Assembly (NCBI GenBank): GCA_947630015.1
Contig: CANRFY010000007.1
Location: forward strand, 2,526-66,525
DNA length: 64,000 bases
Direction of reading: 5' to 3'
Origin: an uncultured Clostridia bacterium
GTDB taxonomy: Bacteria; Bacillota; Clostridia; Oscillospirales; CAG-272
This document shows, one piece after another, positions 36,827-53,382 of the stretch (within the stretch, counting starts at the first letter, position 1; each line of letters starts with the position of its first letter). Under the pieces are notes generated by a model, which saw only the letters and a program-made list of their open reading frames with translations, was not told where the DNA came from and searched no databases. The position numbers and the translations under genes were made by a program.

Positions 36827-36842
36827 TGTTTAACGTGAAACA
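36827..36842. promoter_or_regulatory. parS-like site 2
   Basis: TGTTTAACGTGAAACA, one mismatch to the palindromic parS consensus. Confidence 0.65.
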
Positions 36843-36849
36843 ATCGACG

Positions 36850-40365: not shown

Positions 40366-40404
40366 AAAATCCGCCCCCGAAGACGCGTCTCGGAGGCGGA
40401 TTTT
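40366..40404. terminator. Bidirectional terminator between ttcA (+) and the FHA/kinase operon (-)
   Basis: AAAATCCGCC...GGCGGATTTT long hairpin with A/T runs on both sides. Confidence 0.7.
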
Positions 40405-40417: not shown

Positions 40418-42052
40418 TCAGAATCTGAGTCTGAACGCCACAGAACCCATCGAAATCTCGTCGCCGCTGCGCAGACGGTTCGGCGCGTAAATGCGCATAC
40501 CGCCAAGCCTCGTCCCGTCCGGCGTGCCGAAATCCTCGATGTAGACGATCTGATCCTTTACGAATATGCGCGCGTGTACGGGCGCAACGTCGGGATTCTT
40601 CCATACGATGTCGCACTTCGGCTTGCTTCCGATCGTGAGTTCTTCGTCAAGATAAAGCGTCCTCGGTCCCGCATAGCTGCCCGCGATCACGTCGAGCTTC
40701 ATATAGATGCCCTTGCCCGCGGCAGCCGCGCCTCCGGCGCGCTTTTTATTCTTTTTGCCAGCTCTCGCAACCGCGATCACGGCGATTATGAGCAGCACGG
40801 CAACGACGCCGACGATCACCCATATAAGCACTTTATCGCCGAAGAACTTCGAGAAAAAGCTCTCCGATCCGCCCGTCTCGGCGTCGGTCTCCGCCTCCGC
40901 CGTGAAGCCGTCGGTGCCGGCGTCTGTACCGGCGTCTGTGCCGATCTCGGTCTCGCGTCCGCCGTCAGTGTCCGGCGCATCCGTCGCGGGTTCGTCGGTC
41001 GCGGGTTCATCCGTCGCCGCAGGTTCCTCGGTGCTGTCGGGTTCCTCGGTGTCGACCGTATCGATCGGATCAGCCGTATCGGCTGTATCGGAGCCCTCCG
41101 ATTCCGTATCGATCGGACGCGATGTGATCAGCATCGGAACGCCGCTCAAAACAGACGTTTTGAGCGTCACATCGCCGCCGTCCCCGTCCTTGCCCGCGAA
41201 TTCGAGCTGCACCGACTTCGTGCCTGTCAACTCGCCCGCGCCCTTGAAGCAGGCTGCGTAAAGTCCGTTCACGTACTGCGCAAGATCATGGCCTGCCTTG
41301 GCCGCCGTCATCTCAGCATTGATGAACATCCTCATGCCGTTCACGTCGTCGAGCGCCTTGAACGCGTCGCCGCCCCATTCAGCGCCAACGCAGAGCGTAT
41401 GCGCGATCACGTCGGGATGCGATGCGATCGCATCCTCGAGCGCGCTTTTCGCGCTTTTATCTATCGTCGGCACGCGGCCGTCCGAGATTATGACGAGATT
41501 GACGGCCTCGCCGTCCCTCTCGACGCCTCGCAGATACTCGTATGCCTCGACGATGCCGCCGAATACGCCCACGGCGGATTCCTCATATTTGACATTCTTT
41601 ACCGCGTTCGAGACAGCCTTTTTCCCGACGAGGCCCTCGGCCTCGATCTTTAGTCCGTTCGCGCACGTCGCGACGGCAAAGACCGCGTCCTCGGAGTCTT
41701 TCGCCAGCTCCTCCGCGAACGTCTCGGCGCTGCGCTTCACGCCCGCCATTGTCGCCGACGTATCGATAAGGATCAGATACGCCGCCGGCGTATCGCTTTC
41801 CCCGACCGTCGTAAGAGGCGACGACGCGCCCGATTTGCCGGATATTATCGACGCGCTCTCGAACGTAACGCCGCCGACAGCGCTCGCATCCGCGAATGTG
41901 TAGATGTCGGCGCCCTCGCCGTATGCGGAAACTAATTTGACGCCCGCGTTGATTCCGTCGGCGGTTATGCCGTCGCCGGCGGCGAACGCCGGCATCGCGA
42001 TGCAGATCGCGAGCATTATCGACACGACGATAAACGCTGTTTTTTTGTTCAT
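40418..42052 (-). CDS. Signal peptide - vWA-like ectodomain - TM - cytoplasmic FHA domain protein
   Basis: MNKKTAFIVVSIMLAICIAMPAFA signal; LILIDTSATM MIDAS-like; acidic T/D/E-rich linker; TM VLIWVIVGVVAVLLIIAVIAV; C-terminal FHA (LTIGSKPKCDIVW...VHARIF...IEDFGTPDGTRLGG). Confidence 0.8.
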   Translation of the reverse strand: MNKKTAFIVVSIMLAICIAMPAFAAGDGITADGINAGVKLVSAYGEGADIYTFADASAVGGVTFESASIISGKSGASSPLTTVGESDTPAAYLILIDTSATMAGVKRSAETFAEELAKDSEDAVFAVATCANGLKIEAEGLVGKKAVSNAVKNVKYEESAVGVFGGIVEAYEYLRGVERDGEAVNLVIISDGRVPTIDKSAKSALEDAIASHPDVIAHTLCVGAEWGGDAFKALDDVNGMRMFINAEMTAAKAGHDLAQYVNGLYAACFKGAGELTGTKSVQLEFAGKDGDGGDVTLKTSVLSGVPMLITSRPIDTESEGSDTADTADPIDTVDTEEPDSTEEPAATDEPATDEPATDAPDTDGGRETEIGTDAGTDAGTDGFTAEAETDAETGGSESFFSKFFGDKVLIWVIVGVVAVLLIIAVIAVARAGKKNKKRAGGAAAAGKGIYMKLDVIAGSYAGPRTLYLDEELTIGSKPKCDIVWKNPDVAPVHARIFVKDQIVYIEDFGTPDGTRLGGMRIYAPNRLRSGDEISMGSVAFRLRF

Positions 42053-42074
42053 TGATCCGTCCTCCCACAGTCCG

Positions 42075-42809
42075 TCATCTGACGATGACGGTCATTAGCG
42101 AAAGATTGTCGTTTCCGCGTCCGATGCGCGAGATCACGCGGAGCAGCAGATGCTCCGCCCAGTCGCGCGCGTCGATCGATTTCAACAGATCGAGCGGCAC
42201 TTCGTCGTCGAACAGGTATTCCCAAACGCCGTCGGAGCAGAGCAGAAACGCGTCGCCGGACATAAGCGGCTCCGGCGAGCCGCCGATATCGGGCTGATTG
42301 CGGTCAGCGCCGCCGAGCGTGCGCAGAAGATACGACTGATCCTCGTCCTGTCCGATCTGATGGCGCGTTATCTCGCCCGCCTGATACTTCTTGTACGCGA
42401 CGGAATGATCGTCCGTGACGCTCAGTATAGCGCCGTCGCGCAGATAGTAGAGGCGCGAATCGCCCACGTTGGCCCATGTCGCGCGATCGCCGTCAACGGC
42501 GAGGACGACGACGGTGCTTTTCATCGTGGCGCGGCGCTCCGTCTGGAGCTTCATGACCTCGGTATTCGCAAGCGCGATCTTATCGCGCAGCCATTCCGCG
42601 CGGTCGCCGCATTCAGTCTCGCGTTCCCATTCGGACGCAAGCGTTTCCGCGACGCAGGACGACGCAACCTCTCCGAGCTGATGGCCGCCGAGTCCGTCGG
42701 CGACGACGAATATACCGGAGCCGTCGCGGAGCCTGCACGCGACCGAATCCTCATTCTGCTCTCTGTCGCCGGCGTTTGTGTAGTAAAATACGTCTAATAT
42801 CATAGGCAT
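42075..42809 (-). CDS. PP2C-family Ser/Thr phosphatase (1)
   Basis: 244 aa; REQNEDS, VADGLGGH, CSDGV motifs. Confidence 0.9.
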   Translation of the reverse strand: MPMILDVFYYTNAGDREQNEDSVACRLRDGSGIFVVADGLGGHQLGEVASSCVAETLASEWERETECGDRAEWLRDKIALANTEVMKLQTERRATMKSTVVVLAVDGDRATWANVGDSRLYYLRDGAILSVTDDHSVAYKKYQAGEITRHQIGQDEDQSYLLRTLGGADRNQPDIGGSPEPLMSGDAFLLCSDGVWEYLFDDEVPLDLLKSIDARDWAEHLLLRVISRIGRGNDNLSLMTVIVR

Positions 42810-44203
42810 TACGAAAGCTCGACACGCATCATGTTGGCGCGGTCGCCGAGATAGAAGCTGTCGCCGGATTTAAGTCTGTACGCCATGCCCGCCACGAGCT
42901 TTGTGCCGTTCACGAGATACGTTCCGTATGTGGAGCGCAGATCGGTAAGCACGAATTCGCCCGTCGCGCGGTCATAGCTTACGGAGCAGTGACGCGTGCT
43001 GACGCCCGGGGTGCCGTCGCGGAACACGATCTGGCACGTCGCCTTGTCGCGTCCGATCAAAAGCTGCGCGCCCGTGATCGCGACTCTCATGCCGCCGTGC
43101 TGTTCGGACAGCGAACGCACCGACGGCGTCTGTGCCGGCGACGGCACACCCGCGCCGACGGCTGCGGGACCTGCTGCCGGCGTCTGAGCCGGCGTCTGGC
43201 CCTTCTTTATAAGCAGCACTACGACAACGCCTATAACGACGACGACAAGAACGCCGATGAGGACGATCGCGGCCGTGCTGATATTGAATGTGCTGGTTGT
43301 GGGTTTGACATCGATCTTCAGATCTTCAAGAATGTCCAAAACATACTCAATTTCTATCGAATACTGAGTCTTGGAGTCGCCCGACGACGAATCGGGACTC
43401 ATTGTCCAAGTATTGACGCCGACGACTCTGCCTTTTTCGTCTATAAGCGGTCCGCCCGAGTTGCCGTGGTTGATCGTCGCCGTATGCTGGATAACTCTGA
43501 CGTCGGTATCGTCGGCCGCTACCGTCGTATGAAGCGACACGATACCGCTTGTGACCGTTACCTTTTCAACGCTTGCCGCATACTCCTTGCCGGAGAAATT
43601 GCCGAGCGTCGCATCGTCTGTCGTTCCTGGGAATCCGAGCGCGTATACGGTGTCGCCCGATTCGATCTCCTCGTCCTCGGGGAGAAGCGGGAGTGCGACT
43701 CTGCCCTCCATCGGCTCCGCCGCTCTCAGAACGGCGAGGTCGGCCTCGTCCTCATCCGCCTCGTAAAGCACGCGGCACGGGATCGCGCGGCTCTTGTCAA
43801 GCTCGCCGTTGGAATCCATTGCGAAATCGTCCTTGAGCAGATAGATGCTCGTTACGCGTCCTTGGAACACGTAGTATTCGCCGTTGATCTCCTGCAATGA
43901 CGCGGTGTCTCTTTCAATTACGTGTCTGTTCGTAACGAACACGTCTGTCTCGCCGCCCGTATTGCCGACGCCGAACGCGGTGCCTGTCGACGTCATGTAG
44001 CCCGTGCCGTAATACGACAGATCGTCCGAGGCCACATCATATTTATAAACATCGCAATCGTCATAAATAGCCAAAACTCTCGCAACGCCGTTTCTCGATT
44101 CAGCCGCGATATTGTTGCCGCTCTTCCCCGTCGACGCGCATCCGGATAAAGCCAGCGCGAGTATCATCGCGATAAGTATCGCGCATACTGTTCTTTTTTT
44201 CAT
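42809..44203 (-). CDS. Lipoprotein signal - trypsin-like (S1C) protease ectodomain - TM - FHA domain protein
   Basis: LALSGCAS lipobox; TNRHV and GNSGGPLIDEKGRVVGVNT protease motifs; TM AAIVLIGVLVVVVIGVVVVLLI; C-terminal FHA (LLIGRDKATCQIVF...STRHCSV...DLRSTYGTYLNG-like). Confidence 0.82.
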   Translation of the reverse strand: MKKRTVCAILIAMILALALSGCASTGKSGNNIAAESRNGVARVLAIYDDCDVYKYDVASDDLSYYGTGYMTSTGTAFGVGNTGGETDVFVTNRHVIERDTASLQEINGEYYVFQGRVTSIYLLKDDFAMDSNGELDKSRAIPCRVLYEADEDEADLAVLRAAEPMEGRVALPLLPEDEEIESGDTVYALGFPGTTDDATLGNFSGKEYAASVEKVTVTSGIVSLHTTVAADDTDVRVIQHTATINHGNSGGPLIDEKGRVVGVNTWTMSPDSSSGDSKTQYSIEIEYVLDILEDLKIDVKPTTSTFNISTAAIVLIGVLVVVVIGVVVVLLIKKGQTPAQTPAAGPAAVGAGVPSPAQTPSVRSLSEQHGGMRVAITGAQLLIGRDKATCQIVFRDGTPGVSTRHCSVSYDRATGEFVLTDLRSTYGTYLVNGTKLVAGMAYRLKSGDSFYLGDRANMMRVELS

Positions 44204-44238
44204 TTTCTTTTTCCTGCTTTCCGTTAATTTAAAGTGGA

Positions 44239-45057
44239 TCAATAGCCGCAGTATATACACAGCGCCGTGTAGTTGTCCTGATGCTTCCTGCCCTGACGTC
44301 TGATCTCCTCGTCGATGGCGGCGCACGCCTCCGTCGGCGTCGCGCGCCCGAGATAATCGAGCATCTGGCCGTCGGTCAGAACGCCGCCGACGCCGTCCGA
44401 GCAGATCAGGAGCGCATCGTTCTCGCGGAGCGGGAACGGCGAACGGAGATAATCGACCTCATTCATCCCGTCCATCCCCAAAAACTGCGTCAGCGCGGCC
44501 TTTTCGGGATTGCTCTCGGCCGGCTCGGGGTCCATGCTTCCGTCGCGGATCGCTTCGAGGTAGAGCTGGTTTCTGTATGTATGCTCGCGGTTGAGGCGGT
44601 ACAAGTGTCCCTCGCGCTTCAACAAAATGAAGCTGTCCCCGACGCTGGCGAAATAGAGCCGTTCGCGGAATATGATGCACGCGACGACGGTGCTGCCGCC
44701 GTCTCCGCCGAGACGGGAAAGCACCTGCGCGCTCGCCTTTACGACGGCGCGGCGGAGCTGTTCCGCTATATCGCCGTCGCGGTCGAACTCGGCAAATTCT
44801 CCGCGCAGACATGAAATCGCGGTCTCGCTTGCGATCTTACCGTCCTTCATGCCTCCCATTCCGTCCGCGACGACGGCGAAGAGACCCTTATTCTTCATTT
44901 CGGTCACGTCGAGCGCGTTTACGATCAGAAACGAATCCTCCTGTCTTGCGCGCGCGCCGATCCCCTGAAGATTTGCGGCCTGATAGCTCAGGAGCCGAGG
45001 CGTCGGCGTGTTCGGCGCCGTATCCTCTGCCGGTTCCTTATGGGAGAATGGCCACAT
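44239..45057 (-). CDS. PP2C-family Ser/Thr phosphatase (2)
   Basis: 272 aa; RARQEDS, VADGMGGM, CSDGV motifs. Confidence 0.9.
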   Translation of the reverse strand: MWPFSHKEPAEDTAPNTPTPRLLSYQAANLQGIGARARQEDSFLIVNALDVTEMKNKGLFAVVADGMGGMKDGKIASETAISCLRGEFAEFDRDGDIAEQLRRAVVKASAQVLSRLGGDGGSTVVACIIFRERLYFASVGDSFILLKREGHLYRLNREHTYRNQLYLEAIRDGSMDPEPAESNPEKAALTQFLGMDGMNEVDYLRSPFPLRENDALLICSDGVGGVLTDGQMLDYLGRATPTEACAAIDEEIRRQGRKHQDNYTALCIYCGY

Positions 45058-45063
45058 ATCGTT

Positions 45064-45711
45064 TTACTCCTCTTTCGGCGCAGGCACAAGGCCGTCCGCC
45101 CATGTGAATCTCGGGCAGCAGAGCGGAACGAATACGAATTTGCTCTCGCCGAATTCGACGCAGTCATACGCGTCGAGCTTTCTCGGGATATAGACGGGTT
45201 CGTCGTTTACGTAGATGTTGTTCGTGCTGTCGGCGGGGATAAGCGTGAAATTGTTGTGGCGCGAATCATACGCGATGCGCGCGTGGCGGTCGCGGGATAT
45301 CGTCTTATCGCCCTCGATGCGGATGTCCATGCCCTCTCCGCGTCCGACCGTGTTCTGCTTATCGTAGAGATGATAATCTCTGCCCTTGTCGGGGCCGTCG
45401 ATGCAGACGAGCCATCCCGTAACGGGTTCGAGGTTCGTCTTTTTGCGGGATACGCTGACGGTCTTGTTGTCGTCGTCCTGACGCTTTCTGTATCCGGCCG
45501 GAGCGACGGTCGCGCCGGGTTCTACGCTTGCGAATGCGTCCGGAGCAGGCTGTCCGATCGGATCGGGCGAGCCGCCGCCCATATTGCCGAGGGGAGTCGT
45601 TTTGCCCGGGCCGTCAAATGAGATCGCGTTTCCGCCTCCGTTGCAGTAGGGGCAGGACGGATAAAGATCCGAGTCGTAGAGATGATCGTTTGCGCATTTT
45701 GTGAGTGCCAT
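45064..45711 (-). CDS. Zinc-ribbon - FHA domain protein
   Basis: N-terminal C....H...CPYC ribbon; C-terminal FHA (NTVGRGEGMDIRI..ISRDRHARI...NNIYVNDEP). Confidence 0.85.
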   Translation of the reverse strand: MALTKCANDHLYDSDLYPSCPYCNGGGNAISFDGPGKTTPLGNMGGGSPDPIGQPAPDAFASVEPGATVAPAGYRKRQDDDNKTVSVSRKKTNLEPVTGWLVCIDGPDKGRDYHLYDKQNTVGRGEGMDIRIEGDKTISRDRHARIAYDSRHNNFTLIPADSTNNIYVNDEPVYIPRKLDAYDCVEFGESKFVFVPLCCPRFTWADGLVPAPKEE

Positions 45712-45760
45712 GATGTTCCTCCTGAATTGTGTTTTATATATTTTTTCAGAGATAGCGTTA

Positions 45761-47125
45761 TTATGTGATCGTTACCTCGATCACGTTTGCGGGGCCGCCG
45801 ACGAATATCCTGTCGCCGGAATGTATCTTAAGCTCCGCGCCCGGTTTAACCTTGTACGTGCCGTTCAGCATCGTGCCGTATGTGGAGTTCAGATCCTTTA
45901 CGGTCCATGTGCCGTAATTATACTGGATGCTGCAATGGTGACGGCTGACGCCGGCAGCCTCCGGCGGGAATTTTACGTCGCATTCGTCGTCTCGGCCGAT
46001 CATGATCGCCTTGCCCGTCGAGGTCGTGAACGCCGTGGACTGGATGCCGCCCATGACGCATCTGACGCTTATGTTCTTTCCCCTCGGCGACGACGCGCGC
46101 GACGACGCATAATATACGGGCTGCGCCGGCGTCGGCGGCGTATATGCCATAGGCGTTACCGGCGGCGCGCCGACTGTGGCGATCTGGTGCAGGCACATCC
46201 GCGTGATCCAGAGCGTAATGATCCACAGTATGACGATGATCCCCGTATATTTGAACAGCTCAAGCGTAAAATCGTCGAACAGCGGCGTGTTCCAGAGAAA
46301 ATGGAGCGCGTTCGACGCCGCGAAGGTCAATATGAACGGGATATTGAAGAAGCTCTCGAGACCGAATTTGTTGTTTTTCATGTTAAGCGCTATCGCCGCC
46401 GCATACGGAGCGCAGTAAAGCGTATGTCCGCCGAGGGCGAAAACTCCTCTCATTATCTGATTCGTTATCATGCTGTCGATCGTCGGCATCGCGATCGCGT
46501 ACTGCACCGACTCGAACGCGCCGAAGCCCGCGCCGACGGCGGCTCCGATCACGAGTCCCGTAATGCCGTAGATGCGGCGCTTCTGCTTGAAGATCGCGAT
46601 CAGGATGATCGCCGCGATCAATTTCGCCGGTTCTTCCCTGAGCGGAGCGAAGCTCGCCGGCAGCTCATCCGGCACGACGAGCATCATGATCGCCGTCATC
46701 GCCAGCGAGATGAGCGCGCCGAGGATGAACATCCCGAACACCTCAAATATCGAGATGTTGCGCGGGATATTGAGTTCCCAGAAGAACACGAGCAGTATGA
46801 TCGGCATAACGAGCGGCGGGATTATCGACGCCATGTAAAGCAGCGCCAAAAGCTGGCCGTCGATCGCGAATATCGAGATAAGGAATATGGCGTAGATGAG
46901 AAGGACAAGAACGATTCCGCCCTTCAGCATCGGGTAAAACAGCCACGGCTTGCGCCATTTTTGCAGCATCGTCTCCTCCGACGCGGTGTCGAGCGACGTG
47001 CCTGCCAAAAGCGCGTAATCGAAATCGGTGCGCGAATGCTTCACCCTGCATTCGGAGAACACGTCGCGCCATGTTATCAGCGACGCGTCCTGCCGCGCCT
47101 TGTAGAAAAATGTCCTGTTGCTCAT
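45761..47125 (-). CDS. PrsW-like intramembrane protease fused to C-terminal FHA domain
   Basis: Polytopic; REEPAKL and GFGAFES motifs as in PrsW proteases; C-terminal FHA (IMIGRDDECDVKF..VSRHHCSI...DLNSTYGTMLNG). Confidence 0.75.
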   Translation of the reverse strand: MSNRTFFYKARQDASLITWRDVFSECRVKHSRTDFDYALLAGTSLDTASEETMLQKWRKPWLFYPMLKGGIVLVLLIYAIFLISIFAIDGQLLALLYMASIIPPLVMPIILLVFFWELNIPRNISIFEVFGMFILGALISLAMTAIMMLVVPDELPASFAPLREEPAKLIAAIILIAIFKQKRRIYGITGLVIGAAVGAGFGAFESVQYAIAMPTIDSMITNQIMRGVFALGGHTLYCAPYAAAIALNMKNNKFGLESFFNIPFILTFAASNALHFLWNTPLFDDFTLELFKYTGIIVILWIITLWITRMCLHQIATVGAPPVTPMAYTPPTPAQPVYYASSRASSPRGKNISVRCVMGGIQSTAFTTSTGKAIMIGRDDECDVKFPPEAAGVSRHHCSIQYNYGTWTVKDLNSTYGTMLNGTYKVKPGAELKIHSGDRIFVGGPANVIEVTIT

Positions 47126-48576
47126 AACGGCTCGCCCCGCTCCGTGACGGCCGCATACAGCGGCGCGTCCCGCGCCGCGTCAGCCTCCGCATATATGGCG
47201 GGCGCATCGTCCGCCGCGTCCGGCAGCGTCAAATTCGGCGCCGCCGTTTTCAGCGCGAAGCTGATGAGGAATATGAAGAATCCGAGCATCAAAAGCGCGG
47301 CCGCGGCGCACGCGACGACAAGTATCACCTTTTCGGTGCTGTTCAGCATCTGCGGACGCGGCATATTGTTCTGCCACATCATCTGATTCATCTGATTCAT
47401 CGGCTGCTGCTGATTCATTTGATTCATTTGATTCATCTGCTGCTGCTGATTCATCTGATTCATCGGCTGCTGCTGATTCATCTGATTCATCTGATTTATT
47501 TGCGGGTTCATCTGCTGTCCCGACGTCGGATTTATCTGCGCGGGCGGCGTTTGATTTGCCGCCTGTCCCGACGTCTGACCGATCCGCTGTCCCGCTCCGT
47601 TCGACGGCGCGGGCATATCGAGCGCCCTGCGGAACGCCCCCATCGTGGCGAATCTGCCGCTCACATTGACGTTCAGTCCCTGAAGCAGCGCCGCTTCCTT
47701 TGCGGGCGGTATTTCGACTCCGAGTCCGCTCGGCGGGACGAGCTTGTCGTTATCCATCCTCTCGATCGATTCCGGCGGCTTCACTCCCGTTATCGCGTAA
47801 TAATAGCTTGCGGCGAGCGAGTACACGTCCGTGTACGGCCCCTGCTTTCCGTGCCTTGAATACTGCTCCTTCGGAGCGAATCCGTGCTTGAGTACGATGT
47901 CGAGACTGCAGCTCTTATCGCCGAGGCTGTATCTCGCCGCGCCGAAATCGAGCAGCTTGACGCCGCCGCTCTTTGTGATGAAAATGTTGTCCGGCGTGAC
48001 GTCGCGGTGGATGATCCCCTCGGCGTGGACGGCGTCGAGCGCGTCCATTATCGGCAGAAGAACGCGTTCCGCGTCCCGCCATCCGATCTTTCCGCCGTGA
48101 TCGCGAATGTATTTCTGGAAGCTCTCGCCCTCGACGTAATCCATGACGAAATACGCGGTGCCGTTTTCCTCGAAATAGCTGTGTATGCGGACGATATTGT
48201 CGTTGCCGATGAATTTTGCGAGCGTTTCCGCTTCCTTTAGGAAGCATTCCTTCCCGTACTCGAAATTATCTCTGCGTTCGCCGACGTAGGACGTCACCTC
48301 GTGAGTCCCCGTCCGCGTCGCGAATTCGTCGGGGAGATACTCCTTGACCGCCATTATGCCGTCCGTCTTGTAGTCCTTGGCCACATACGTTATGCCGAAG
48401 CCGCCCTGACCGAGTACGCGGCCGAGTATGTAGCGTCCGTTCAAAACGGAGCCGTGCGGAAGCGCGAGCGGATATTCCTCCGCCGCCCCCGACGGATCGT
48501 AGCCGCAGTACGGGCAGGCGCCGCCCTCCTCCGCCTTTTCGCGAAAGCAGTTATAACAAATCAGTTTCTCGTTCAT
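47122..48576 (-). CDS. Ser/Thr protein kinase 1 (N-terminal Zn ribbon, Q/N/M-rich linker, C-terminal TM)
   Basis: CYNCF...CPYCGY; GQGGFGITY, AVKEY, HRDVTPDNI, DFGAAR; stop overlaps PrsW-FHA start (ATGA). Confidence 0.93.
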   Translation of the reverse strand: MNEKLICYNCFREKAEEGGACPYCGYDPSGAAEEYPLALPHGSVLNGRYILGRVLGQGGFGITYVAKDYKTDGIMAVKEYLPDEFATRTGTHEVTSYVGERRDNFEYGKECFLKEAETLAKFIGNDNIVRIHSYFEENGTAYFVMDYVEGESFQKYIRDHGGKIGWRDAERVLLPIMDALDAVHAEGIIHRDVTPDNIFITKSGGVKLLDFGAARYSLGDKSCSLDIVLKHGFAPKEQYSRHGKQGPYTDVYSLAASYYYAITGVKPPESIERMDNDKLVPPSGLGVEIPPAKEAALLQGLNVNVSGRFATMGAFRRALDMPAPSNGAGQRIGQTSGQAANQTPPAQINPTSGQQMNPQINQMNQMNQQQPMNQMNQQQQMNQMNQMNQQQPMNQMNQMMWQNNMPRPQMLNSTEKVILVVACAAAALLMLGFFIFLISFALKTAAPNLTLPDAADDAPAIYAEADAARDAPLYAAVTERGEPL

Positions 48577-48612
48577 ACGACATCCCTCAAGCTGTATGAT
48601 TTGCGATCGACA

Positions 48613-50991
48613 TCATATCTGCGACTGATCGGCGAGCCTTATTACCTCGGTATCGATGAGCGCCCTTCCGTAGATTCGGTACTCGTCGAGCTGACCCGTG
48701 AAATATTCGCCGCTTTCCCACGGCGCGTATCCGATAAACACGACGCTGTTGTCGCCTAAGATATCGTGCATCGTATGGTTCGCGTCGGTCACCTCCATAT
48801 TCCACTGGAGTACCCCGTTAAAATAGAATTTAAGTCTGTTCGTCTTGCTGTTGAACGAGAACGCGACATGGTGCCATTCGGGTTCGCGTCCGAATTTCGT
48901 AACGGTGTTCACCATCCACGTATAACGGCGCTGAAAGTCTGAATACTCGCAGTTGTAGTATTCGGCGTTTACCGTCGTTTCGGTTTCCAATATGCCTATA
49001 TAGCGCTCATGTTCATATATGGGGACGAGGACCTCGGCGTCCATTCCGCCGCCGACGCGCGGACCCGCGAAAAATTCCCATTTCGACGCTGCCGCGGGAG
49101 TTGTCTTAGCCCAGTACGACACAGTGAACGAATCGAGTCCCGACATAAGCGGCGAGCCGTCGGCCTTGCTGATCTCGAGCCAGAACCGGTTATTGGGGGT
49201 TCGGACGAAGTCAAGCGCGCCGTTCTTCACGCCGTCGGCTGCGAATGTCGGCGTACCGTTTACGGTCTTGACCGAAACGCCGTCGTATGAAAGACCGCTC
49301 TCCGCGTCATCGAACGTAAGCCTCATAAGAAGTCCGTCCGGCACGATAACTGTCTCGGGCGCATCCGTGCCGGCGGCCGTATTGCCGTCGGTTTCATCGC
49401 CGGTCTGCGCACCGCCGCGCGTCATTGCGACGACGACGGCAGCGACCGTGATCCCGCATACGAGAAGCGCCGCCGCGAGTATAATTATCAACGTGGCTTT
49501 GCCCTTTTTGCGCGGCTTTTCGGCGCTTGCGGCCTTTTCCGCTTTTGCGGCTTTTTTAGCCTCTGCGGCTTTTTTAGCTTCTGCGGCCTTTTTAGCCTCC
49601 GCGGCCTTTTTAGCTTCTGCGGCTTTTTTAGCCTCTGCGGCCTTTTTGGCTTCCGCAGCCTTTTTAGCTTCTGCGGCCTTTTTAGCCTCTGCGGCCTTTT
49701 TAGATTCCGCAGCCTTTTCCGCTTCTGCGAATTTTTCCGTTTCTGCGGGTTTATCTTCCTGATCGAATCCGAATTCGCGCGCGCGGACGAGTACCGTATG
49801 CCCGTCGCCGCCCTCATATCCCGCGACCGTCGGCGTAATCTCTTCCTTCTGCGGCTCCGGCTGCTGTTCCTGCTGCTGTTCAGGCTGCGTCTTTACGCGC
49901 GGCAGCTTGTGCGTCGGCGGCTCCGGCAGAGGCGCCGCCTCCTGCTGTTTCAGCTTGCGCTGCGTCTCCGGCGGCGGATCCACCATCATCGGCGGCGGGG
50001 TAACCGTCTCGGGCGTCTCGGGCGGTCTTTCGCCCGTCAGCGCCGCGTGGAAATCCGTCATGCGGCTGAATCTTTCCGCGGGCTGGACGCTCAGACCCTT
50101 GAGGATCGCGTCCTCGACGTTTTCGGGTATATCTATGCCGAGATTGCTCGGCGGGATAAGATCGTCCTCATCCATTCTTTCGACGGAATCCGGCGGCTTT
50201 TTGCCCGTGATCGCGTAGTAGAACGACGCCGCGACCGAGTACACGTCCGTGAACGGCCCCTGCCGCCCGTGTCTCGTGTACTGTTCCTTCGGCGCGAATC
50301 CGTGCTTAAGCACGATATCGAGACTGCGGCTCCTGTCGCCGAGGCTGTATCTTGCCGCGCCGAAATCGAGCAGCTTGACCTCGCCGTCGTCGGTTATTAT
50401 TATGTTGTCGGGCGTAACGTCGCGGTGGATGATCCCCTTTGAATGGACGGCGTCGAGCGCGTCCATGATCGGGATCAGGATGCGTTCTGCATCCTGCCAG
50501 CTTATCTTCCCGCCGGAGTCGGCGATGTACTTTTCAAAGCTGACGCCCTCGACGTAATCCATGACGAAGTACGCGGTGCCGTTTTCCTCAAAATAGCAGT
50601 GTACGCGAACTATATTCGGATTGCCTATGAACTGTGCGAGCGTCTCCGCTTCCTCGAGAAAGCACTTTTTTCCGTACTCGAAATTCTCGCCGCGCTTCCC
50701 GGGATGCGCCAGCACCGTCAACGGTCCCGAGCGCGTCGCGACGGCGTCGGGAAGAAATTCCTTTATCGCGACAAGCTGGCCCGTTTTCCATTCCTGCGCA
50801 ACGTATGTGATGCCGAATCCGCCCTGGCCGAGTACGCGGCCGAGAATGTACCGCCCGTTCAGTATTGTTCCGTGCGGCAGCGCGACGGGATATTCCTCGC
50901 GCTCGTGAGTCGGATCATAGCCGCAGAGCCGGCAGACGTCCTCGCCGGCCGGTAAAGCGTGAAAGCAATTATAGCAAATTCCGCTGCTCAT
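48613..50991 (-). CDS. Ser/Thr protein kinase 2 (Zn ribbon, KKAAEA repeats, TM, LamG-like ectodomain)
   Basis: CYNCF...CRLCGY; kinase motifs as above; C-terminal ...LDEYRIYGRALIDTEV typical of LamG/ConA-like jelly-roll domains. Confidence 0.9.
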   Translation of the reverse strand: MSSGICYNCFHALPAGEDVCRLCGYDPTHEREEYPVALPHGTILNGRYILGRVLGQGGFGITYVAQEWKTGQLVAIKEFLPDAVATRSGPLTVLAHPGKRGENFEYGKKCFLEEAETLAQFIGNPNIVRVHCYFEENGTAYFVMDYVEGVSFEKYIADSGGKISWQDAERILIPIMDALDAVHSKGIIHRDVTPDNIIITDDGEVKLLDFGAARYSLGDRSRSLDIVLKHGFAPKEQYTRHGRQGPFTDVYSVAASFYYAITGKKPPDSVERMDEDDLIPPSNLGIDIPENVEDAILKGLSVQPAERFSRMTDFHAALTGERPPETPETVTPPPMMVDPPPETQRKLKQQEAAPLPEPPTHKLPRVKTQPEQQQEQQPEPQKEEITPTVAGYEGGDGHTVLVRAREFGFDQEDKPAETEKFAEAEKAAESKKAAEAKKAAEAKKAAEAKKAAEAKKAAEAKKAAEAKKAAEAKKAAEAKKAAKAEKAASAEKPRKKGKATLIIILAAALLVCGITVAAVVVAMTRGGAQTGDETDGNTAAGTDAPETVIVPDGLLMRLTFDDAESGLSYDGVSVKTVNGTPTFAADGVKNGALDFVRTPNNRFWLEISKADGSPLMSGLDSFTVSYWAKTTPAAASKWEFFAGPRVGGGMDAEVLVPIYEHERYIGILETETTVNAEYYNCEYSDFQRRYTWMVNTVTKFGREPEWHHVAFSFNSKTNRLKFYFNGVLQWNMEVTDANHTMHDILGDNSVVFIGYAPWESGEYFTGQLDEYRIYGRALIDTEVIRLADQSQI
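49545..49715 (-). repeat. In-frame 18-nt tandem repeat encoding (KKAAEA)n in kinase 2
   Basis: GCGGCCTTTTTAGCYTCT units repeated about 8-9 times. Confidence 0.9.
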
Positions 50992-51033: not shown

Positions 51034-53310
51034 TTAGTCCTTCGTCATTATGTTGCGCCAAGATTCAACGTAGCACTGACCGTAATGATTATAGCCGACC
51101 GCGACGACGGAGCCGTCTTCACGCACTCCCACGGTATGAAGCAACCCCGCAGAGACAGCGACAAGATGACTCCATTCGGATCCGTCTACCTCGGATCTGC
51201 CGAATTTGGTGCTGTCATCGCCGACTGACACAGCCGTTCCGTCAGCTTTAAGTCCGACCGTATGGAAAGCATGAGCCGAGATCATCACGATGTCGCGCCA
51301 ATCTCCGACATCGCATTGACCGTTAGAGTTGTTTCCGACGGCTACGACGGTTCCGTCGAGCTTAAGCCCGAGCGTAAAGTTTTCGCTGGCTACGATCTGT
51401 ACGATATCATGCCAATCCTCGACGTTGCACTGGCCGTAATCATTATTTCCAACCGCGACGCACGTTCCGTCTCTGAGCAGCGCGACCGTGTGGTTAAATC
51501 CCGCTGAAATCGCGATAACATCGCTCCAGCCGCCCACATTAAGATCGCCGTTAATGCCTCCGCCGACAGCGACAACTGTCCCGTCGCTTCTGAGTCCGAC
51601 CGTATGCACATTTCCTACGTCGATGGAAATTATATTGCTCCAGTCCCCAACGTTGCACTGGCCGTATTCATTATCACCTACAGCTACGCACGTTCCGTCC
51701 TCGCGCAGTCCGACCGAAAACGCGTGACAGCCGTTATCGTCGTTATAATAACCTCCGGCCGCGACCGAGATAATGTTCGTCCATCCGCCCACATCGCATT
51801 CGTTCGTTTCGTTGCATCCCGTCGCCATGACAGTGCCGTCATTTTTGATCGCGAGCGTATGCATCGGCCCTGCGGAAATTGTATTTGTGAGGTAATACCC
51901 CACCTCATAAACGACCGAACCGCTTGACGGCGGCTCCGTCTCGGGCGGATTCGTTACAGGCGGTTCCGTCTCGGGCGGGTTTGTTACAGGCGTTTCCGTT
52001 CCCTCGTTCGGCCCCGACGGAATGATCACGCCGCCGATCCTATCGGTGTCGTCGTCGTCATTGCCGTGGTTGTATCCGTCCGTGTCGTCTCTGTATGACG
52101 GCACGTAGGGTTCGTCGTCCTGCATCAGGCTTGAGACGCCGACCGCGATCAGAACCGCGATCGCAACGACGCCTGCCAATATCGCGGGGATGAGCCATTT
52201 CGGCATCTTTTTCTTCGGCTGCTGCACCGGCGGAATGAACGGCGGCAGAATGCCCTGTCCCGATCCGTATGGCGTCGTCTGCGTCGTCTGCGTGTACGGC
52301 GGCTGCACGCCCTGCGAGCCGGACATATTCTGCACGGGAGGTGCGAGAAGAGCTGCCTTGAACGCCGCCATGCGCTGGAAGCGTCCCGATTCGTTGACGC
52401 TCAGTCCCTGAAGGATCGCGGCCTCGACGTTTTTCGGTATATCGGGGCAGTATGCGCTCGGCGGGACGAGTCTGTCGTCCTCCATGCGTTCGATCGATTC
52501 CGGCGGCTTTTTGCCCGTCACGGCGTAATAGAACGTCGCCGCGAGCGCGTAAACATCGGTGAACGGCCCCTGTCTGCCGTGCTGTTTATACTGCTCCTTC
52601 GGCGCGAAGCCATGCTTCAGCACGATATCGAGACTGCAGCTTCTGTCGCCGATGCTGTATCTTGCCGCGCCGAAATCGATCAGCTTTACGCTGCCATTCG
52701 ACGTTATCATTATATTATCGGGCGTGACGTCGCGATGTATGATGCCCTCGGCATGGACGGCGTCGAGCGCGTCCATGACGGGGAACAGGAAATTCTCCGC
52801 CTCGCGCCAGCCGATCTTTCCGCCCTTGCTCTCGATATAACGCTGAAGGCTGACGCCCTCGACGTATTCCATCGCGAAATAGCCCGTCCCGTTTTCCTCG
52901 AAATAGCTTTTGACATGGACTATATTCGGATGCGAGTTGAATTTGGAGAGCATCTGAGCTTCCTTAAGGAAGCAGTCCTTCCCGTATGTAAAGTTCTCGG
53001 CGCGTTCGCCCGTATATGGGGTGATCTGGCATCCGCCCGTTCTCGATGCGAGAGAGTCGGGCATATATTCCTTTATGGCGATGAGGGATTTTGTTTTCCA
53101 TTCCTGCGCCACATATGTGATGCCGAATCCGCCCTGGCCGAGTACACGGCCCGTTATGTAGCGTCCGTTTAAAACGGAGCCGAGGGGCAATGCCGCAGGG
53201 AACAGTCCTTCATCGCGCGCCGGATCATATCCGCAGTGCGGGCAGGCTCCGGATTCCGGTTTTTCGCGAAAGCAGTTATAGCACAAGCTGGCGTTCATAT
53301 ATTTCCTCAT
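51034..53310 (-). CDS. Ser/Thr protein kinase 3 (Zn ribbon, TM, RCC1-like repeat ectodomain)
   Basis: CYNCF...CPHCGY; kinase motifs; about 7 repeats of HTVGL..DGTVVAVG.N..GQC.V..W..I. Confidence 0.9.
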   Translation of the reverse strand: MRKYMNASLCYNCFREKPESGACPHCGYDPARDEGLFPAALPLGSVLNGRYITGRVLGQGGFGITYVAQEWKTKSLIAIKEYMPDSLASRTGGCQITPYTGERAENFTYGKDCFLKEAQMLSKFNSHPNIVHVKSYFEENGTGYFAMEYVEGVSLQRYIESKGGKIGWREAENFLFPVMDALDAVHAEGIIHRDVTPDNIMITSNGSVKLIDFGAARYSIGDRSCSLDIVLKHGFAPKEQYKQHGRQGPFTDVYALAATFYYAVTGKKPPESIERMEDDRLVPPSAYCPDIPKNVEAAILQGLSVNESGRFQRMAAFKAALLAPPVQNMSGSQGVQPPYTQTTQTTPYGSGQGILPPFIPPVQQPKKKMPKWLIPAILAGVVAIAVLIAVGVSSLMQDDEPYVPSYRDDTDGYNHGNDDDDTDRIGGVIIPSGPNEGTETPVTNPPETEPPVTNPPETEPPSSGSVVYEVGYYLTNTISAGPMHTLAIKNDGTVMATGCNETNECDVGGWTNIISVAAGGYYNDDNGCHAFSVGLREDGTCVAVGDNEYGQCNVGDWSNIISIDVGNVHTVGLRSDGTVVAVGGGINGDLNVGGWSDVIAISAGFNHTVALLRDGTCVAVGNNDYGQCNVEDWHDIVQIVASENFTLGLKLDGTVVAVGNNSNGQCDVGDWRDIVMISAHAFHTVGLKADGTAVSVGDDSTKFGRSEVDGSEWSHLVAVSAGLLHTVGVREDGSVVAVGYNHYGQCYVESWRNIMTKD

Positions 53311-53352
53311 TCTTTGTCAAGAAGTTACAGACATTCTATTGTATTATACACC

Positions 53353-53382
53353 TTGCGGCATGGAGAAATCAATAGTAAATGT
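53353..53382 (-). promoter_or_regulatory. Candidate promoter of kinase/phosphatase/FHA operon (TTGATT-N18-TATAAT)
   Basis: Read on minus strand about 45 nt upstream of kinase 3 ATG, which has a GAGGA RBS. Confidence 0.45.

What the first reader, a model, noticed from the sequence alone, without database searches (positions are those of the whole stretch)
40418..47125. Three 'extracytoplasmic enzyme/adhesin - TM - cytoplasmic FHA' proteins, two of them proteases
The vWA-like ectodomain protein (40418-42052), the trypsin-like S1C lipoprotein (42809-44203) and the PrsW-type intramembrane protease (45761-47125) each end in an FHA domain on the cytoplasmic side. FHA fused to PrsW, and FHA fused to an exported serine protease, are not combinations I know as characterised proteins. 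The arrangement suggests that kinase autophosphorylation recruits or gates proteases across the membrane, giving phospho-dependent proteolysis or clustering.
Basis: inference. Interest (0 to 1): 0.65.

Follow-up and report, generated by a model that had tools for sequence, protein, structure and literature searches.

The report
FHA-tailed membrane proteases in kinase operon
A gut Clostridia-type bacterium carries a nine-gene operon in which an intramembrane protease, an exported serine protease and an adhesin-like protein each have a cytoplasmic phosphothreonine-reader (FHA) tail and sit beside three receptor kinases and two phosphatases; the cassette is widespread in Lachnospiraceae and relatives, has not been studied experimentally, and probably links kinase signalling to proteolysis at the cell surface.

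Summary
On the minus strand, 40418-42052, 42809-44203 and 45761-47125 encode signal peptide + vWA-like domain + TM + FHA, lipoprotein signal + trypsin-like domain + TM + FHA, and 8-TM PrsW + FHA. Both refutation tests fail. The FHA tails are predicted cytoplasmic, and both proteases keep their catalytic residues, which are invariant across relatives.

Two corrections apply to the window's vWA-like protein. Its metal-binding (MIDAS) site is degenerate, and its FHA has lost the canonical phosphothreonine-contacting Arg and Ser.

The three genes belong to a nine-gene operon (40418-53310): three zinc-ribbon receptor Hanks kinases, two PP2C phosphatases and a soluble zinc-ribbon-FHA protein. The cassette is conserved and modular in Lachnospiraceae and other Clostridia. 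All 31 sufficiently long related loci hold a kinase and a PP2C. PrsW-FHA alone spans about 600 clusters at 50% identity.

The best explanation is a phosphothreonine-wired membrane module that plugs FHA-tailed effectors into receptor kinases. That part is supported by conservation; the gating mechanism is inferred only.

The PrsW-FHA fusion was noted in silico in 2012 (PMC3482391). I found no description of the cassette or the trypsin-TM-FHA architecture, and no experiments. Verdict: new variant of a known kind, moderate to high interest.

The parts
53343..53372 (-). Promoter-like site (TTGATT-18-TATAAT) directly upstream of the first kinase gene
   Evidence: 10 of 12 matches; sequence. This is a consensus match only.
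51034..53310 (-). Receptor Hanks kinase 3: N-terminal CxxC..CxxC zinc ribbon, kinase domain, one TM (about 374-392) and an RCC1-repeat beta-propeller ectodomain
   Evidence: Pkinase 2.1e-34, RCC1_2 6.3e-44 with 6 repeats; TM; sequence. The catalytic loop is HRDVTPDN.
48613..50991 (-). Receptor Hanks kinase 2: zinc ribbon, kinase domain, (KKAAEA)n helical spacer, TM (about 502-520) and a LamG/ConA-like ectodomain
   Evidence: Pkinase 2.2e-31, Laminin_G_3 1.3e-14; (18-bp tandem repeat at 49528-49736).
47122..48576 (-). Hanks kinase 1: zinc ribbon, kinase domain, Q/N/M-rich linker, TM (about 417-435) and a short ectodomain of about 45 aa. Its stop overlaps the PrsW-FHA start by 4 nt.
   Evidence: Pkinase 3.5e-31; (repeat at 47379-47503).
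45761..47125 (-). PrsW-family intramembrane protease: conserved cytoplasmic N-terminal region of about 60 aa, 8 TM helices, a disordered linker (321-348) and a C-terminal cytoplasmic FHA (351-453)
   Evidence: PrsW 60.8 bits against cut-off 23.5; FHA 59.5 bits. (invariant E164 E165 P166 K168, F201/F204/E205, H234, H275; FHA G377 R378 S394 H397 S414 G417 T418). (AF2, pLDDT 84). (Foldseek FHA hits). (K+R 9 against 0).
45064..45711 (-). Soluble 215-aa protein: N-terminal CxxxH...CxxC zinc ribbon plus a variant FHA domain. It is a conserved core member of the cassette.
   Evidence: FHA 2.4e-10; no TM; alignment of 30 of the 43 small FHA-only ORFs collected: most share the zinc ribbon, GR, [S/G]RExH and a C-terminal FVPLCG motif.
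44239..45057 (-). PP2C phosphatase b (272 aa, no TM)
   Evidence: PP2C_2 2.8e-11; Stp1/IreP-type 4.4e-33, below the equivalog cut-off. The DGMGG, GDS, SDG and DN motifs are visible in the sequence.
42809..44203 (-). Exported trypsin-like (Trypsin_2, S1) protease with a lipoprotein signal (lipobox LSGC), no PDZ domain, one TM and a cytoplasmic FHA tail
   Evidence: Trypsin_2 75.3 bits, FHA 54.1 bits. (invariant H94, D155, S249 in GNSGGPL; FHA G384 R385 S402 H405 S424 G427 T428)..
42075..42809 (-). PP2C phosphatase a (244 aa). Its first base overlaps the stop of the trypsin-FHA gene.
   Evidence: PP2C_2 6.4e-15; Stp1/IreP-type 3.1e-46.
40418..42052 (-). Signal peptide + divergent vWA-like ectodomain (degenerate MIDAS) + acidic T/D/E/P-rich stalk + TM + cytoplasmic FHA fold with a degenerate pThr pocket
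40366..40404 (-). Intrinsic-terminator-like hairpin (16-bp stem, 8 G-C pairs, T tail) 14 nt after the last gene

Best explanation
The three proteins are 'FHA-tailed' transmembrane effectors of a self-contained Ser/Thr phospho-signalling operon (40418-53310).

Proposed mechanism, with each step marked:
1. Three single-pass receptor Hanks kinases with different ectodomains (RCC1 propeller, LamG, short stub) sense something outside the cell and phosphorylate Thr residues on the cytoplasmic face. Inferred.
2. The cytoplasmic FHA domains of the PrsW protease and the exported S1 protease, which keep the full phosphothreonine-binding residue set, dock on those pThr sites. Docking residues are shown; partners are inferred.
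3. Docking brings the PrsW active site, and the extracellular serine protease and vWA module, next to the activated kinase complex. By AF2 helix positions and the inferred topology, the PrsW active site lies near the outer leaflet. Docking either gates their activity or chooses their substrates. Inferred.
4. The two PP2Cs reset the system. The small zinc-ribbon-FHA protein acts as a soluble adaptor or competitor. Inferred.

The cassette is modular. A core of small FHA + 2 PP2C + kinase(s) accepts different FHA-tailed effectors (trypsin, PrsW, vWA, unknown ectodomains). That is the strongest argument that the FHA tail is a generic plug into the kinase/phosphatase core.
For: Architecture and topology:
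- PrsW has 9 K+R on the N-in/C-in side and 0 on the other.
- The AF2 model of PrsW-FHA has pLDDT 84, 8 TM helices and a flexible linker followed by FHA. The FHA fold is confirmed by Foldseek.

Catalytic competence:
- All four PrsW motifs are invariant in 21 sequences.
- The His-Asp-Ser triad is invariant in 20 sequences.
- The pThr-binding residues GR / SxxH / S..GT are conserved in both protease FHA tails.

Operon structure:
- Gene gaps run from -4 to 49 nt.
- There is a promoter-like site upstream and a strong terminator downstream.

Conservation:
- Full-length fusion families were found. About 618 clusters at 50% identity reach E<=1e-30 for PrsW-FHA.
- 48 genome loci were recovered, mostly Lachnospiraceae. 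Named species and strains (not MAGs) include Dorea acetigenes, Enterocloster lavalensis, [Clostridium] asparagiforme and Blautia sp. MSJ-9; the Roseburia hominis locus is from a MAG.
- 31 of 31 loci of at least 18 kb carry a kinase and a PP2C, with a mean of 4.6 FHA genes per locus.
- The cassette also occurs without PrsW.

Flanking genes differ between genomes, so the cassette is self-contained.

Precedent: Zhang et al. 2012 predicted that PrsW-FHA fusions are 'signaling peptidases'. Solved FHA-enzyme and FHA-kinase complexes appear among the structural neighbours, namely DgcB, GarA-PknB and FhaA-MviN.
Against: - There is no direct evidence of phosphorylation, FHA-pThr pairing or proteolysis.
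- The window kinases lack Thr in the activation loop.
- Kinase juxtamembrane linkers and TM-to-FHA linkers across the family are not Thr-enriched: 6.4% and 4.5%, against 5.3-6.2% elsewhere. No docking site could be named.
- The kinases have an atypical catalytic loop, HRDx[S/T]PDN, with no Lys. Their activity is assumed, not shown.
- The FHA of the window's vWA-like protein has lost the canonical Arg and Ser. The small FHA protein has a non-canonical S-R-D-R-H spacing. Not all FHA folds here need to read pThr.
- No protease substrate is identifiable from sequence.
Confidence: 0.55

Rival explanations
1. The FHA-tailed proteins are substrates that switch themselves. The kinases phosphorylate Thr in the proteins' own cytoplasmic segments: the TP-rich TM-to-FHA linkers, or the conserved 60-aa N-terminus of PrsW-FHA. 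The FHA then binds that pThr in cis or in trans. The result is auto-inhibition or oligomerisation, as in GarA/OdhI or Bdellovibrio DgcB, rather than docking on the kinase.
For: - The linkers in the window contain repeated TP motifs: 'VTPMAYTPPTPA' in PrsW-FHA and 'QTPAQTP...AQTPS' in trypsin-FHA.
- PrsW-FHA has a strongly conserved cytoplasmic N-terminal region containing 'AGTSLxTATE'.
- GarA, OdhI and DgcB FHA structures bound to their own phosphorylated tails are among the closest structural matches.
Against: - The Thr positions in the PrsW N-terminal region are not invariant.
- TM-to-FHA linkers across the family are not Thr-enriched (4.5% T).
- This rival is not exclusive of the main explanation.
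Confidence: 0.2
2. PrsW-FHA is an ordinary site-1 protease of an ECF anti-sigma factor encoded elsewhere, as B. subtilis PrsW is for RsiW. The FHA only modulates this. The trypsin and vWA proteins are unrelated envelope proteins that happen to share the operon.
For: - PrsW family membership is clear, with an intact active site.
- In one related genome an ECF sigma factor and an unknown 324-aa protein lie directly downstream of the cassette.
Against: - An ECF sigma factor within 10 kb was found in only one genome (three copies of the same locus: L003, L004 and L005 of the 52 loci held) plus two weak hits. None lies next to the window cassette.
- Kinases and PP2Cs are present in 31 of 31 long loci.
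- The trypsin-FHA and vWA-FHA proteins recur in the same cassette across distant genomes.
Confidence: 0.1
3. The cassette is a biological-conflict (for example anti-phage) or surface-surveillance system. Variable kinase ectodomains would detect invaders or competitors, and the proteases would be effectors.
For: - There are several paralogous receptor kinases per locus with very different ectodomains: RCC1, LamG, DUF285, lectin-like, LRP1-propeller and YARHG.
- vWA, trypsin-like, FHA and kinase domains recur in predicted conflict systems (PMC7159879).
- PADLOC kinase and protease models give domain-level hits.
Against: - The PADLOC hits are generic kinase or trypsin domain matches. The FHA, PrsW and vWA proteins hit nothing.
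- The window context is housekeeping and oriC-proximal, with ParA/ParB and SerRS. No mobile-element or defence-island genes were seen among the flanking ORFs scanned.
- No NTPase or nuclease effector is present.
Confidence: 0.08
4. The module regulates assembly of a secretion or pilus machine. This would parallel the PpkA-PppA-Fha1 threonine-phosphorylation pathway of type VI secretion, or the FHA domains of T3SS YscD and T7SS EssC.
For: - The combination of Hanks kinase + PP2C + FHA is the same.
- PpkA carries a periplasmic vWA domain (own knowledge).
- Pfam Yop-YscD_cpl and NCBIfam TagH (VI_FHA) give partial matches to the FHA tails.
Against: - No secretion-system or pilus genes lie in the window flanks or in the related loci examined.
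- The YscD and TagH matches are FHA-fold matches below the family cut-offs.
Confidence: 0.04

Closest known systems
Bacillus subtilis PrsW (YpdC), site-1 protease of the anti-sigma-W factor RsiW (Pfam PF13367)
   Same: The Pfam match is well above threshold. There are eight TM helices and all four family motifs (EExxK, FxxxE, H, HxxxN), all invariant across relatives. The 8-TM and four-motif description comes from PMC3482391.
   Different: The window protein has an extra conserved cytoplasmic N-terminus of about 60 aa and a C-terminal FHA domain. It is encoded with kinases and PP2Cs, not with an ECF sigma/anti-sigma pair. Its substrate is unknown.
PrsW-FHA 'signalling peptidases' listed by Zhang, de Souza, Anantharaman, Iyer and Aravind 2012 (Biol Direct 7:18, PMC3482391)
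   Same: The domain fusion and the functional guess are the same: cleavage coupled to a signal read by the fused domain.
   Different: That paper gives one sentence and no gene-neighbourhood, topology or family analysis. It does not describe the multi-effector cassette with trypsin-FHA, vWA-FHA, zinc-ribbon-FHA, two PP2Cs and several kinases.
Type VI secretion threonine-phosphorylation pathway: PpkA (Hanks kinase with periplasmic vWA), PppA (PP2C) and Fha1
   Same: A receptor Hanks kinase, a PP2C and an FHA reader are encoded together, and a vWA domain sits outside the membrane. This comparison rests on established knowledge, not on a test here.
   Different: There are no T6SS genes and the organism is Gram-positive-type. 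The FHA domains are fused directly to enzymes, and the vWA is on a separate FHA-tailed protein rather than on the kinase.
Mycobacterial fhaA-fhaB(fipA)-pstP-rodA-pbpA-pknA-pknB operon
   Same: Membrane-anchored TM+FHA proteins are encoded together with a PP2C and two Hanks kinases. The NCBIfam FhaB/FipA model aligns to the last TM + linker + FHA of PrsW-FHA (profile 2-145 of 158) and of trypsin-FHA. FhaA FHA structures are top sequence hits.
   Different: Scores are far below the FhaB equivalog cut-off (48-50 bits against 125). There is no RodA, PbpA or PASTA domain. The window proteins carry enzymatic or adhesive ectodomains that FipA lacks.
Sulfolobus ArnA (zinc finger + FHA) / ArnB (vWA) with kinases ArnC/ArnD and phosphatase PP2A; also Deinococcus DRA0331-0334 (vWA, kinase, FHA, PP2C)
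   Same: Zinc-ribbon-FHA, vWA, kinase and phosphatase are encoded together. ArnA (5a8i) is hit by the vWA-FHA family profile and by the PrsW-FHA model; 8s05, deposited only as 'conserved protein' and taken from memory to be an ArnA/ArnB complex, is hit by the family profile. The literature is listed.
   Different: Those vWA proteins are cytoplasmic and regulate archaellum expression or the DNA-damage response. Here the vWA is exported and tethered across the membrane to the FHA.
Membrane-anchored S1 proteases DegS, HtrA and MarP
   Same: The S1 fold has a TNxHV / D / GNSGGP triad, is placed outside the membrane and is anchored to it. NCBIfam gives partial hits to DegP/HtrA, DegS and MarP.
   Different: There is no PDZ domain. 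Scores are far below all the equivalog cut-offs. Anchoring is by an N-terminal lipobox plus a C-terminal TM, and the cytoplasmic FHA tail replaces PDZ as the likely regulatory module.

Membership tests
PrsW intramembrane protease family (PF13367) | Profile match above the curated threshold | tested here: met
   60.8 bits against a cut-off of 23.5, covering residues 131-301.
PrsW intramembrane protease family (PF13367) | Four conserved active-site motifs (EExxK/R, FxxxE, H, HxxxN/D) in TM helices | tested here: met
   E164 E165 P166 K168, F201/F204/E205, H234 and H275 are invariant, and N279 is at least 90% conserved, in 21 sequences.
PrsW intramembrane protease family (PF13367) | Eight transmembrane helices | tested here: met
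   The AF2 model has 8 long helices between residues 63 and 319, with pLDDT mostly 85-97.
PrsW intramembrane protease family (PF13367) | Site-1 cleavage of an anti-sigma factor | not testable with these tools
   No ECF sigma/anti-sigma gene lies in cis in the window, and an ECF sigma is found in cis in only one related genome (plus two weak hits). This needs biochemistry.
Trypsin-like serine peptidase (PF13365 Trypsin_2, clan PA, S1) | Profile match above threshold and a His-Asp-Ser triad | tested here: met
   75.3 bits against a cut-off of 27.6. H94, D155 and S249 are invariant in 20 sequences.
HtrA/DegP/DegS (S1C) family | One or two C-terminal PDZ domains, and a score above the equivalog or subfamily cut-off | tested here: not met
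   No PDZ hit. TIGR02037 scores 67.9 bits against a cut-off of 416, and DegS scores 42 against 423. It is S1C-like in sequence, not an HtrA-family member.
Bacterial lipoprotein | Signal peptide ending in the lipobox [LVI][ASTVI][GAS]C | tested here: met
   MKKRTVCAILIAMILALALS-G-C, with the Cys at position 22. The Cys is present in only some relatives, so lipidation is not a family trait.
FHA domain (PF00498), phosphothreonine reader | Profile match and FHA beta-sandwich fold | tested here: met
   Four proteins score 41-59 bits against a cut-off of 20.7. The AF2 model of the PrsW tail matches solved FHA domains with TM-scores up to 0.86.
FHA domain (PF00498), phosphothreonine reader | Canonical pThr-contacting residues (G-R, S-x-x-H, N-G/T) | tested here: met
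   Met for PrsW-FHA (R378, S394, H397) and for trypsin-FHA (R385, S402, H405). Not met for the window's vWA-like protein (GS, APVH, DGT). Atypical spacing in the 215-aa protein (SRDRH).
von Willebrand factor A domain | Profile match above threshold | tested here: inconclusive
   The window sequence alone gives VWA_2 E=0.0078, 17.3 bits against a cut-off of 27. A profile of 23 orthologs including the window protein hits solved vWA domains at 2e-11 to 1e-5. The single-sequence AF2 model was unusable (pLDDT 37).
von Willebrand factor A domain | Intact MIDAS (DxSxS ... T ... D) | tested here: not met
   The window has D97-T-S99-A-T101 and lacks the MIDAS Thr ('SAVGVF' where orthologs have 'EDTNLY'). 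D191 is kept. 21 of the 22 other aligned orthologs have DxSGS (one has DISGT) and all 22 keep the Thr.
Hanks-type Ser/Thr kinase | GxGxxG, VAIK Lys, HRDxKxxN catalytic loop and DFG | tested here: inconclusive
   Pkinase scores 109-120 bits. GQGGFG, AxK and DFG are present. The catalytic-loop Lys is replaced (HRDVTPDN), as in more than 80 cassette kinases with HRDISPDN. Activity was not tested.
T6SS threonine-phosphorylation pathway (PpkA/PppA/Fha1/TagH) | Linkage to T6SS core genes, and TagH/Fha above the cut-off | tested here: not met
   VI_FHA scores 34-39 bits against a cut-off of 120. No T6SS genes lie in the window flanks or related loci.

The most novel reading that the evidence does not exclude
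The cassette is a bacterial 'receptor-kinase shedding / inside-out proteolysis' machine.

- Thr-phosphorylated receptor kinases have the same N-in/C-out single-pass topology as RsiW, the known PrsW substrate.
- They recruit PrsW through its FHA tail and are themselves clipped in their extracellular stalk.
- In parallel, cytoplasmic phosphorylation controls an extracellular serine protease and a vWA adhesin across the membrane through their FHA tails.

This would be a new principle: FHA-mediated transmembrane coupling of Ser/Thr phosphorylation to regulated intramembrane and extracellular proteolysis. It would be widespread in human- and animal-gut Lachnospiraceae.
Probability: 0.15. Interest if true: 0.85.

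Novelty: new variant of a known kind. Interest (0 to 1): 0.58.

Why it matters
Hanks kinases, PP2C phosphatases and FHA readers are known in bacteria mostly from Actinobacteria, pathogens and type VI secretion. Their outputs there are cytoplasmic: metabolism, cell division, machine assembly.

Here the reader domain is fused directly to two different membrane-spanning proteases and an adhesin-like module. The cassette is conserved and modular, and it is common in dominant gut commensals. Loci were found in Dorea, Blautia and Enterocloster strains and in MAGs assigned to Roseburia, Faecalibacterium and Oscillospiraceae.

If the wiring is real, it gives a direct and testable route from extracellular sensing by variable receptor kinases to regulated proteolysis at the cell surface. 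It would also offer a second, phosphorylation-based way to control a PrsW-type site-1 protease, whose activation signal is still poorly understood even in B. subtilis.

Several carriers are named strains rather than MAGs, and one ([Clostridium] asparagiforme DSM 15981) is a culture-collection strain, so experiments are feasible.

Tried and rejected
1. The word-index homolog search with the full vWA-like protein found only itself. The low-complexity acidic stalk probably swamped the word candidates. Orthologs were taken from related loci instead.

2. A single-sequence AlphaFold run on the vWA-like ectodomain gave pLDDT 37 and was unusable. Orthologs from loci could not be submitted.

3. I looked for Thr enrichment in kinase juxtamembrane linkers and TM-to-FHA linkers as a sign of FHA docking sites. 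There was none: 6.4% and 4.5% T against 5.3-6.2% in the domains. No docking site could be named.

4. I looked for a cis-encoded ECF sigma/anti-sigma partner for PrsW. One was found in only one related genome, plus two weak hits. None lies among the window genes scanned next to the cassette. The classical PrsW pairing is therefore not supported.

5. NCBIfam gave no specific family. All hits were domain-level and below the cut-offs.

6. PADLOC gave only generic kinase, PP2C and trypsin domain hits. The PrsW, FHA and vWA proteins had none. A defence-system assignment is rejected as unsupported.

7. Foldseek of the PrsW-FHA model against the PDB returned only FHA domains in the top 50. No solved PrsW-like membrane core was retrieved.

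8. Literature searches combining PrsW with FHA, and FHA with Lachnospiraceae, trypsin and intramembrane protease, found only the 2012 one-sentence mention and a 2008 FHA-FHA-trypsin listing. There are no experimental papers in the searchable library. Subscription journals are not covered.

Full report
**What is in the sequence**

The region lies in a run of nine tightly packed minus-strand genes from 53310 down to 40418. Gene gaps run from -4 to 49 nt. A promoter-like site lies at 53372-53343. A strong terminator-like hairpin (16-bp stem plus T tail) lies at 40404-40366.

Pfam gives, in order of transcription:
- Three Hanks kinases: 51034-53310 with six RCC1 repeats, 48613-50991 with a LamG-type domain, and 47122-48576.
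- PrsW + FHA: 45761-47125.
- A soluble FHA protein: 45064-45711.
- PP2C: 44239-45057.
- Trypsin_2 + FHA: 42809-44203.
- PP2C: 42075-42809.
- A 544-aa protein with a C-terminal FHA: 40418-42052.

All three kinases and the small FHA protein begin with a Cys/His zinc-ribbon motif. The flanks are housekeeping and origin-proximal: ParA, two ParB-like genes, SerRS, a ThiF-like gene and a PP-loop ATPase on one side, and a PIG-L deacetylase and a GFO/IDH/MocA oxidoreductase on the other. The only adjustment is that the mechanical ORF of the protease runs to a GTG at 44326.

**Topology**

The vWA-like protein has an N-terminal signal-type hydrophobic segment and one TM (peak 408-426) followed by AGKKNKKR. 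The protease has MKKR...LALSGC (a lipobox) and one TM (peak 313-331) followed by K-K. Both ectodomains are therefore predicted to be outside the cell and both FHA domains inside.

For PrsW-FHA, an AlphaFold model built from 21 family members has mean pLDDT 84. It shows eight long helices (63-88, 93-117, 126-147, 161-180, 187-212, 216-247, 262-279, 286-319), a disordered linker at 321-348 and an FHA beta-sandwich at 351-453. With eight TM helices both termini lie on the same side. Lys and Arg close to the membrane number 9 on the N-in/C-in side and 0 on the other. Foldseek matches the C-terminal domain to many solved FHA domains.

**Catalytic residues**

In 21 PrsW-FHA proteins of 36-59% identity, the invariant columns include E164-E165-P166-x-K168, F201/F204/E205, H234 and H275. 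N279 is nearly invariant. These are the four motifs that define the family (described in PMC3482391).

In 20 trypsin-TM-FHA proteins of 28-52% identity, H94 (TNRHV), D155 (DLAVL) and S249 (GNSGGPL) are invariant. The second refutation test also fails.

With this topology and the AF2 helix boundaries, E164/E165, E205 and H275 lie towards the outer-leaflet ends of their helices. That is across the membrane from the FHA. This placement is an inference from helix positions, not a measurement.

**The vWA-like protein needs two corrections**

On its own the ectodomain reaches only E=0.0078 for VWA_2, which is below threshold. However, it is 33% identical along its whole length to an ortholog in a related cassette. 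A profile of 23 orthologs matches solved vWA domains: ITIH1 2e-11, collagen VI 7e-10 and integrin alpha-M 2e-6. The fold assignment is therefore reasonable.

Orthologs carry a canonical MIDAS (DxSGS, 'EDTNLY', 'SDG'). The window copy has DTSAT and has lost the MIDAS Thr.

Its FHA, together with those of its two nearest orthologs, has replaced the canonical pThr-contacting residues: GR becomes GS, SxxH becomes APVH and NGT becomes DGT. This tail has the FHA fold but probably does not read phosphothreonine in the usual way.

The PrsW and trypsin tails keep the full set.

**It is a conserved, modular cassette**

- Both fusions are large full-length families. Nearly all of the best 120 hits for each carry both domains, and their only names are generic.
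- An exhaustive profile search finds 618 clusters at 50% identity with E<=1e-30 for PrsW-FHA. The best 150 are mostly full length.
- A scan of one genome per species returned 48 loci, mostly Lachnospiraceae. They include Dorea acetigenes, a Roseburia hominis MAG, Enterocloster lavalensis, [Clostridium] asparagiforme DSM 15981 (two copies) and Blautia sp. MSJ-9. MAGs labelled Oscillospiraceae, Acutalibacteraceae, Monoglobus and Faecalibacterium also appear.
- I scanned all ORFs of these loci with HMMs built from the window's own domains. Every one of the 31 loci with at least 18 kb of sequence has at least one Hanks kinase and at least one PP2C within 10 kb. The mean is 4.6 FHA-bearing genes per locus.
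- Among those 31 loci, vWA-TM-FHA occurs in 21, trypsin-TM-FHA in 13, a cytoplasmic kinase-FHA fusion in 20, and other FHA-only proteins (the small soluble FHA and signal-peptide + unknown ectodomain + TM + FHA proteins) in 28.
- Precomputed Pfam annotation of independent contigs shows the same picture.
- Cassettes without PrsW also exist: small FHA, PP2C, PP2C, trypsin-FHA, kinase, kinase.
- Neighbouring genes differ from genome to genome.

The picture is a core of small zinc-ribbon-FHA, two PP2Cs and one or more kinases. Different FHA-tailed membrane effectors are attached to this core.

**How it most likely works**

Shown:
- The domain architecture, predicted topology, catalytic residues and operon structure.
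- The pThr-binding residues in two of the tails.
- The strict co-occurrence of the fusions with kinases and PP2Cs.

Inferred:
- The kinases phosphorylate Thr on themselves or on cassette partners.
- The FHA tails of PrsW and the S1 protease dock there.
- Docking positions or gates proteolysis on the outer face of the membrane.
- The PP2Cs reset the system.
- The small FHA protein acts as a soluble adaptor or competitor.

I could not name the docking sites. The window kinases have Ser but no Thr in the activation loop. Linkers across the family are not Thr-enriched.

The main rival is a GarA/DgcB-type self-switch, in which the FHA binds a pThr in the protein's own linker or N-terminus. This remains open. 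The window linkers are TP-rich, and PrsW-FHA has a strongly conserved 60-aa cytoplasmic N-terminus.

The classical PrsW role, cleaving an ECF anti-sigma factor, is not supported in cis. An ECF sigma is adjacent in one related genome only, plus two weak hits. I found no support for a secretion-system regulator or for a known defence system.

**Comparison with what is known**

- The closest single protein is B. subtilis PrsW.
- The closest systems are the PpkA/PppA/Fha1 pathway of type VI secretion, the mycobacterial fhaA-fhaB-pstP-pknA-pknB operon, and the archaeal ArnA (zinc finger-FHA) / ArnB (vWA) pair with its kinases and phosphatase.
- The NCBIfam FhaB/FipA model aligns to the last TM + linker + FHA of the two proteases, but far below its cut-off.
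- The S1 domain resembles HtrA/DegS/MarP but has no PDZ domain and scores far below their cut-offs. It should not be filed as an HtrA-family member.
- The PrsW-FHA fusion itself was listed in 2012, together with PilZ, cNMP-binding and zinc-ribbon fusions, as likely 'signaling peptidases' (PMC3482391).
- A 2008 survey listed one FHA-FHA-trypsin protein in Bacteroides thetaiotaomicron, with the opposite domain order (PMC2605481).
- I found no paper describing the trypsin-TM-FHA architecture, the cassette as a whole, or any experiment on it. The library does not cover most subscription journals.

**Verdict**

Architecture, topology, catalytic competence and kinase linkage hold. The recruitment or gating mechanism is plausible but untested, and its docking sites are unknown.

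This is a new variant of a known kind, namely Hanks kinase / PP2C / FHA signalling with transmembrane proteases as fused outputs. It is common in gut Clostridia and open to experiment in culturable strains. Interest is about 0.58.

Noticed in passing
window 47122-53310 (three kinases); related loci L001-L052: The cassette kinases lack the conserved catalytic-loop Lys of Hanks kinases. The window has HRDVTPDN in all three, and more than 80 of about 100 kinases in related loci have HRDISPDN. The loop resembles RIO/Bud32-type loops (own knowledge), and one cassette kinase has a weak Pfam RIO1 hit. The window activation loops have Ser but no Thr.
   Followed up: partly
window 49528-49736 and 47379-47503: There are in-frame tandem DNA repeats in the cytoplasmic linkers of two kinases. 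An 18-bp unit x 11 encodes (KKAAEA)n in kinase 2. A 9/63-bp repeat encodes a Q/N/M-rich (QMN)n low-complexity stretch in kinase 1. These may be length-variable spacers or clustering regions.
   Followed up: no
window 40909-41017 (within 40418-42052): Short 12- and 15-bp repeats encode the acidic T/D/E/P-rich stalk between the vWA-like domain and the TM. This stalk probably caused the word-index homolog search to return only the query.
   Followed up: no
window 45064-45711; about 40 homologs in related loci: The small soluble FHA protein belongs to a conserved family. It has an N-terminal C-x3-H-x9-10-C-x2-C zinc ribbon, a variant FHA (GR, [S/G]-R-E/D-x-H, no S-x-N-G-T) and a conserved C-terminal 'FVPLCG[ED]' motif. 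It recalls archaeal ArnA (zinc finger + FHA).
   Followed up: partly
window 45761-47125, residues 1-62 and 116-123: PrsW-FHA proteins share a strongly conserved cytoplasmic N-terminal region (invariant S24, H30, G42, M53, W57, P60). They also share an invariant cytoplasmic loop, W-E-x-N-I-P-x-N, between TM2 and TM3. The function of both is unknown. They may form a regulatory surface or a phospho-acceptor region.
   Followed up: no
related loci L001, L006, L007, L012-L016 and others: Many cassettes hold components that the window lacks. These include a cytoplasmic kinase-FHA fusion (20 of 31 long loci), a PP2C with an N-terminal TM and extension, and 400-550-aa signal peptide + unknown ectodomain + TM + FHA proteins with no Pfam hit in the ectodomain.
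   Followed up: partly
L046, L049, L050, L051; L015, L016, L018: Variant PrsW-FHA proteins of about 645-650 aa continue after the FHA with another TM and a C-terminal extension. Some loci have two tandem PrsW-FHA genes.
   Followed up: no
L003/L004/L005 16989-18562: In the closest named relative (an uncultured Lachnospiraceae MAG), an ECF sigma factor, an unknown 324-aa protein and an ABC transporter follow the cassette directly. This adjacency is not conserved elsewhere.
   Followed up: yes
window 32028-33239 and 34968-37659: A MORN-repeat protein (403 aa) lies next to SerRS. A ParB-like / ParA / ParB-like trio follows, suggesting that the window is close to the chromosomal origin.
   Followed up: no
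window 53922-55016 versus 54773-56092: The 364-aa TTG ORF with a PIG-L domain overlaps the upstream oxidoreductase gene by about 240 nt. Its Arg-rich first ~100 residues precede the domain, which starts at residue 102. The real start is probably further downstream.
   Followed up: no
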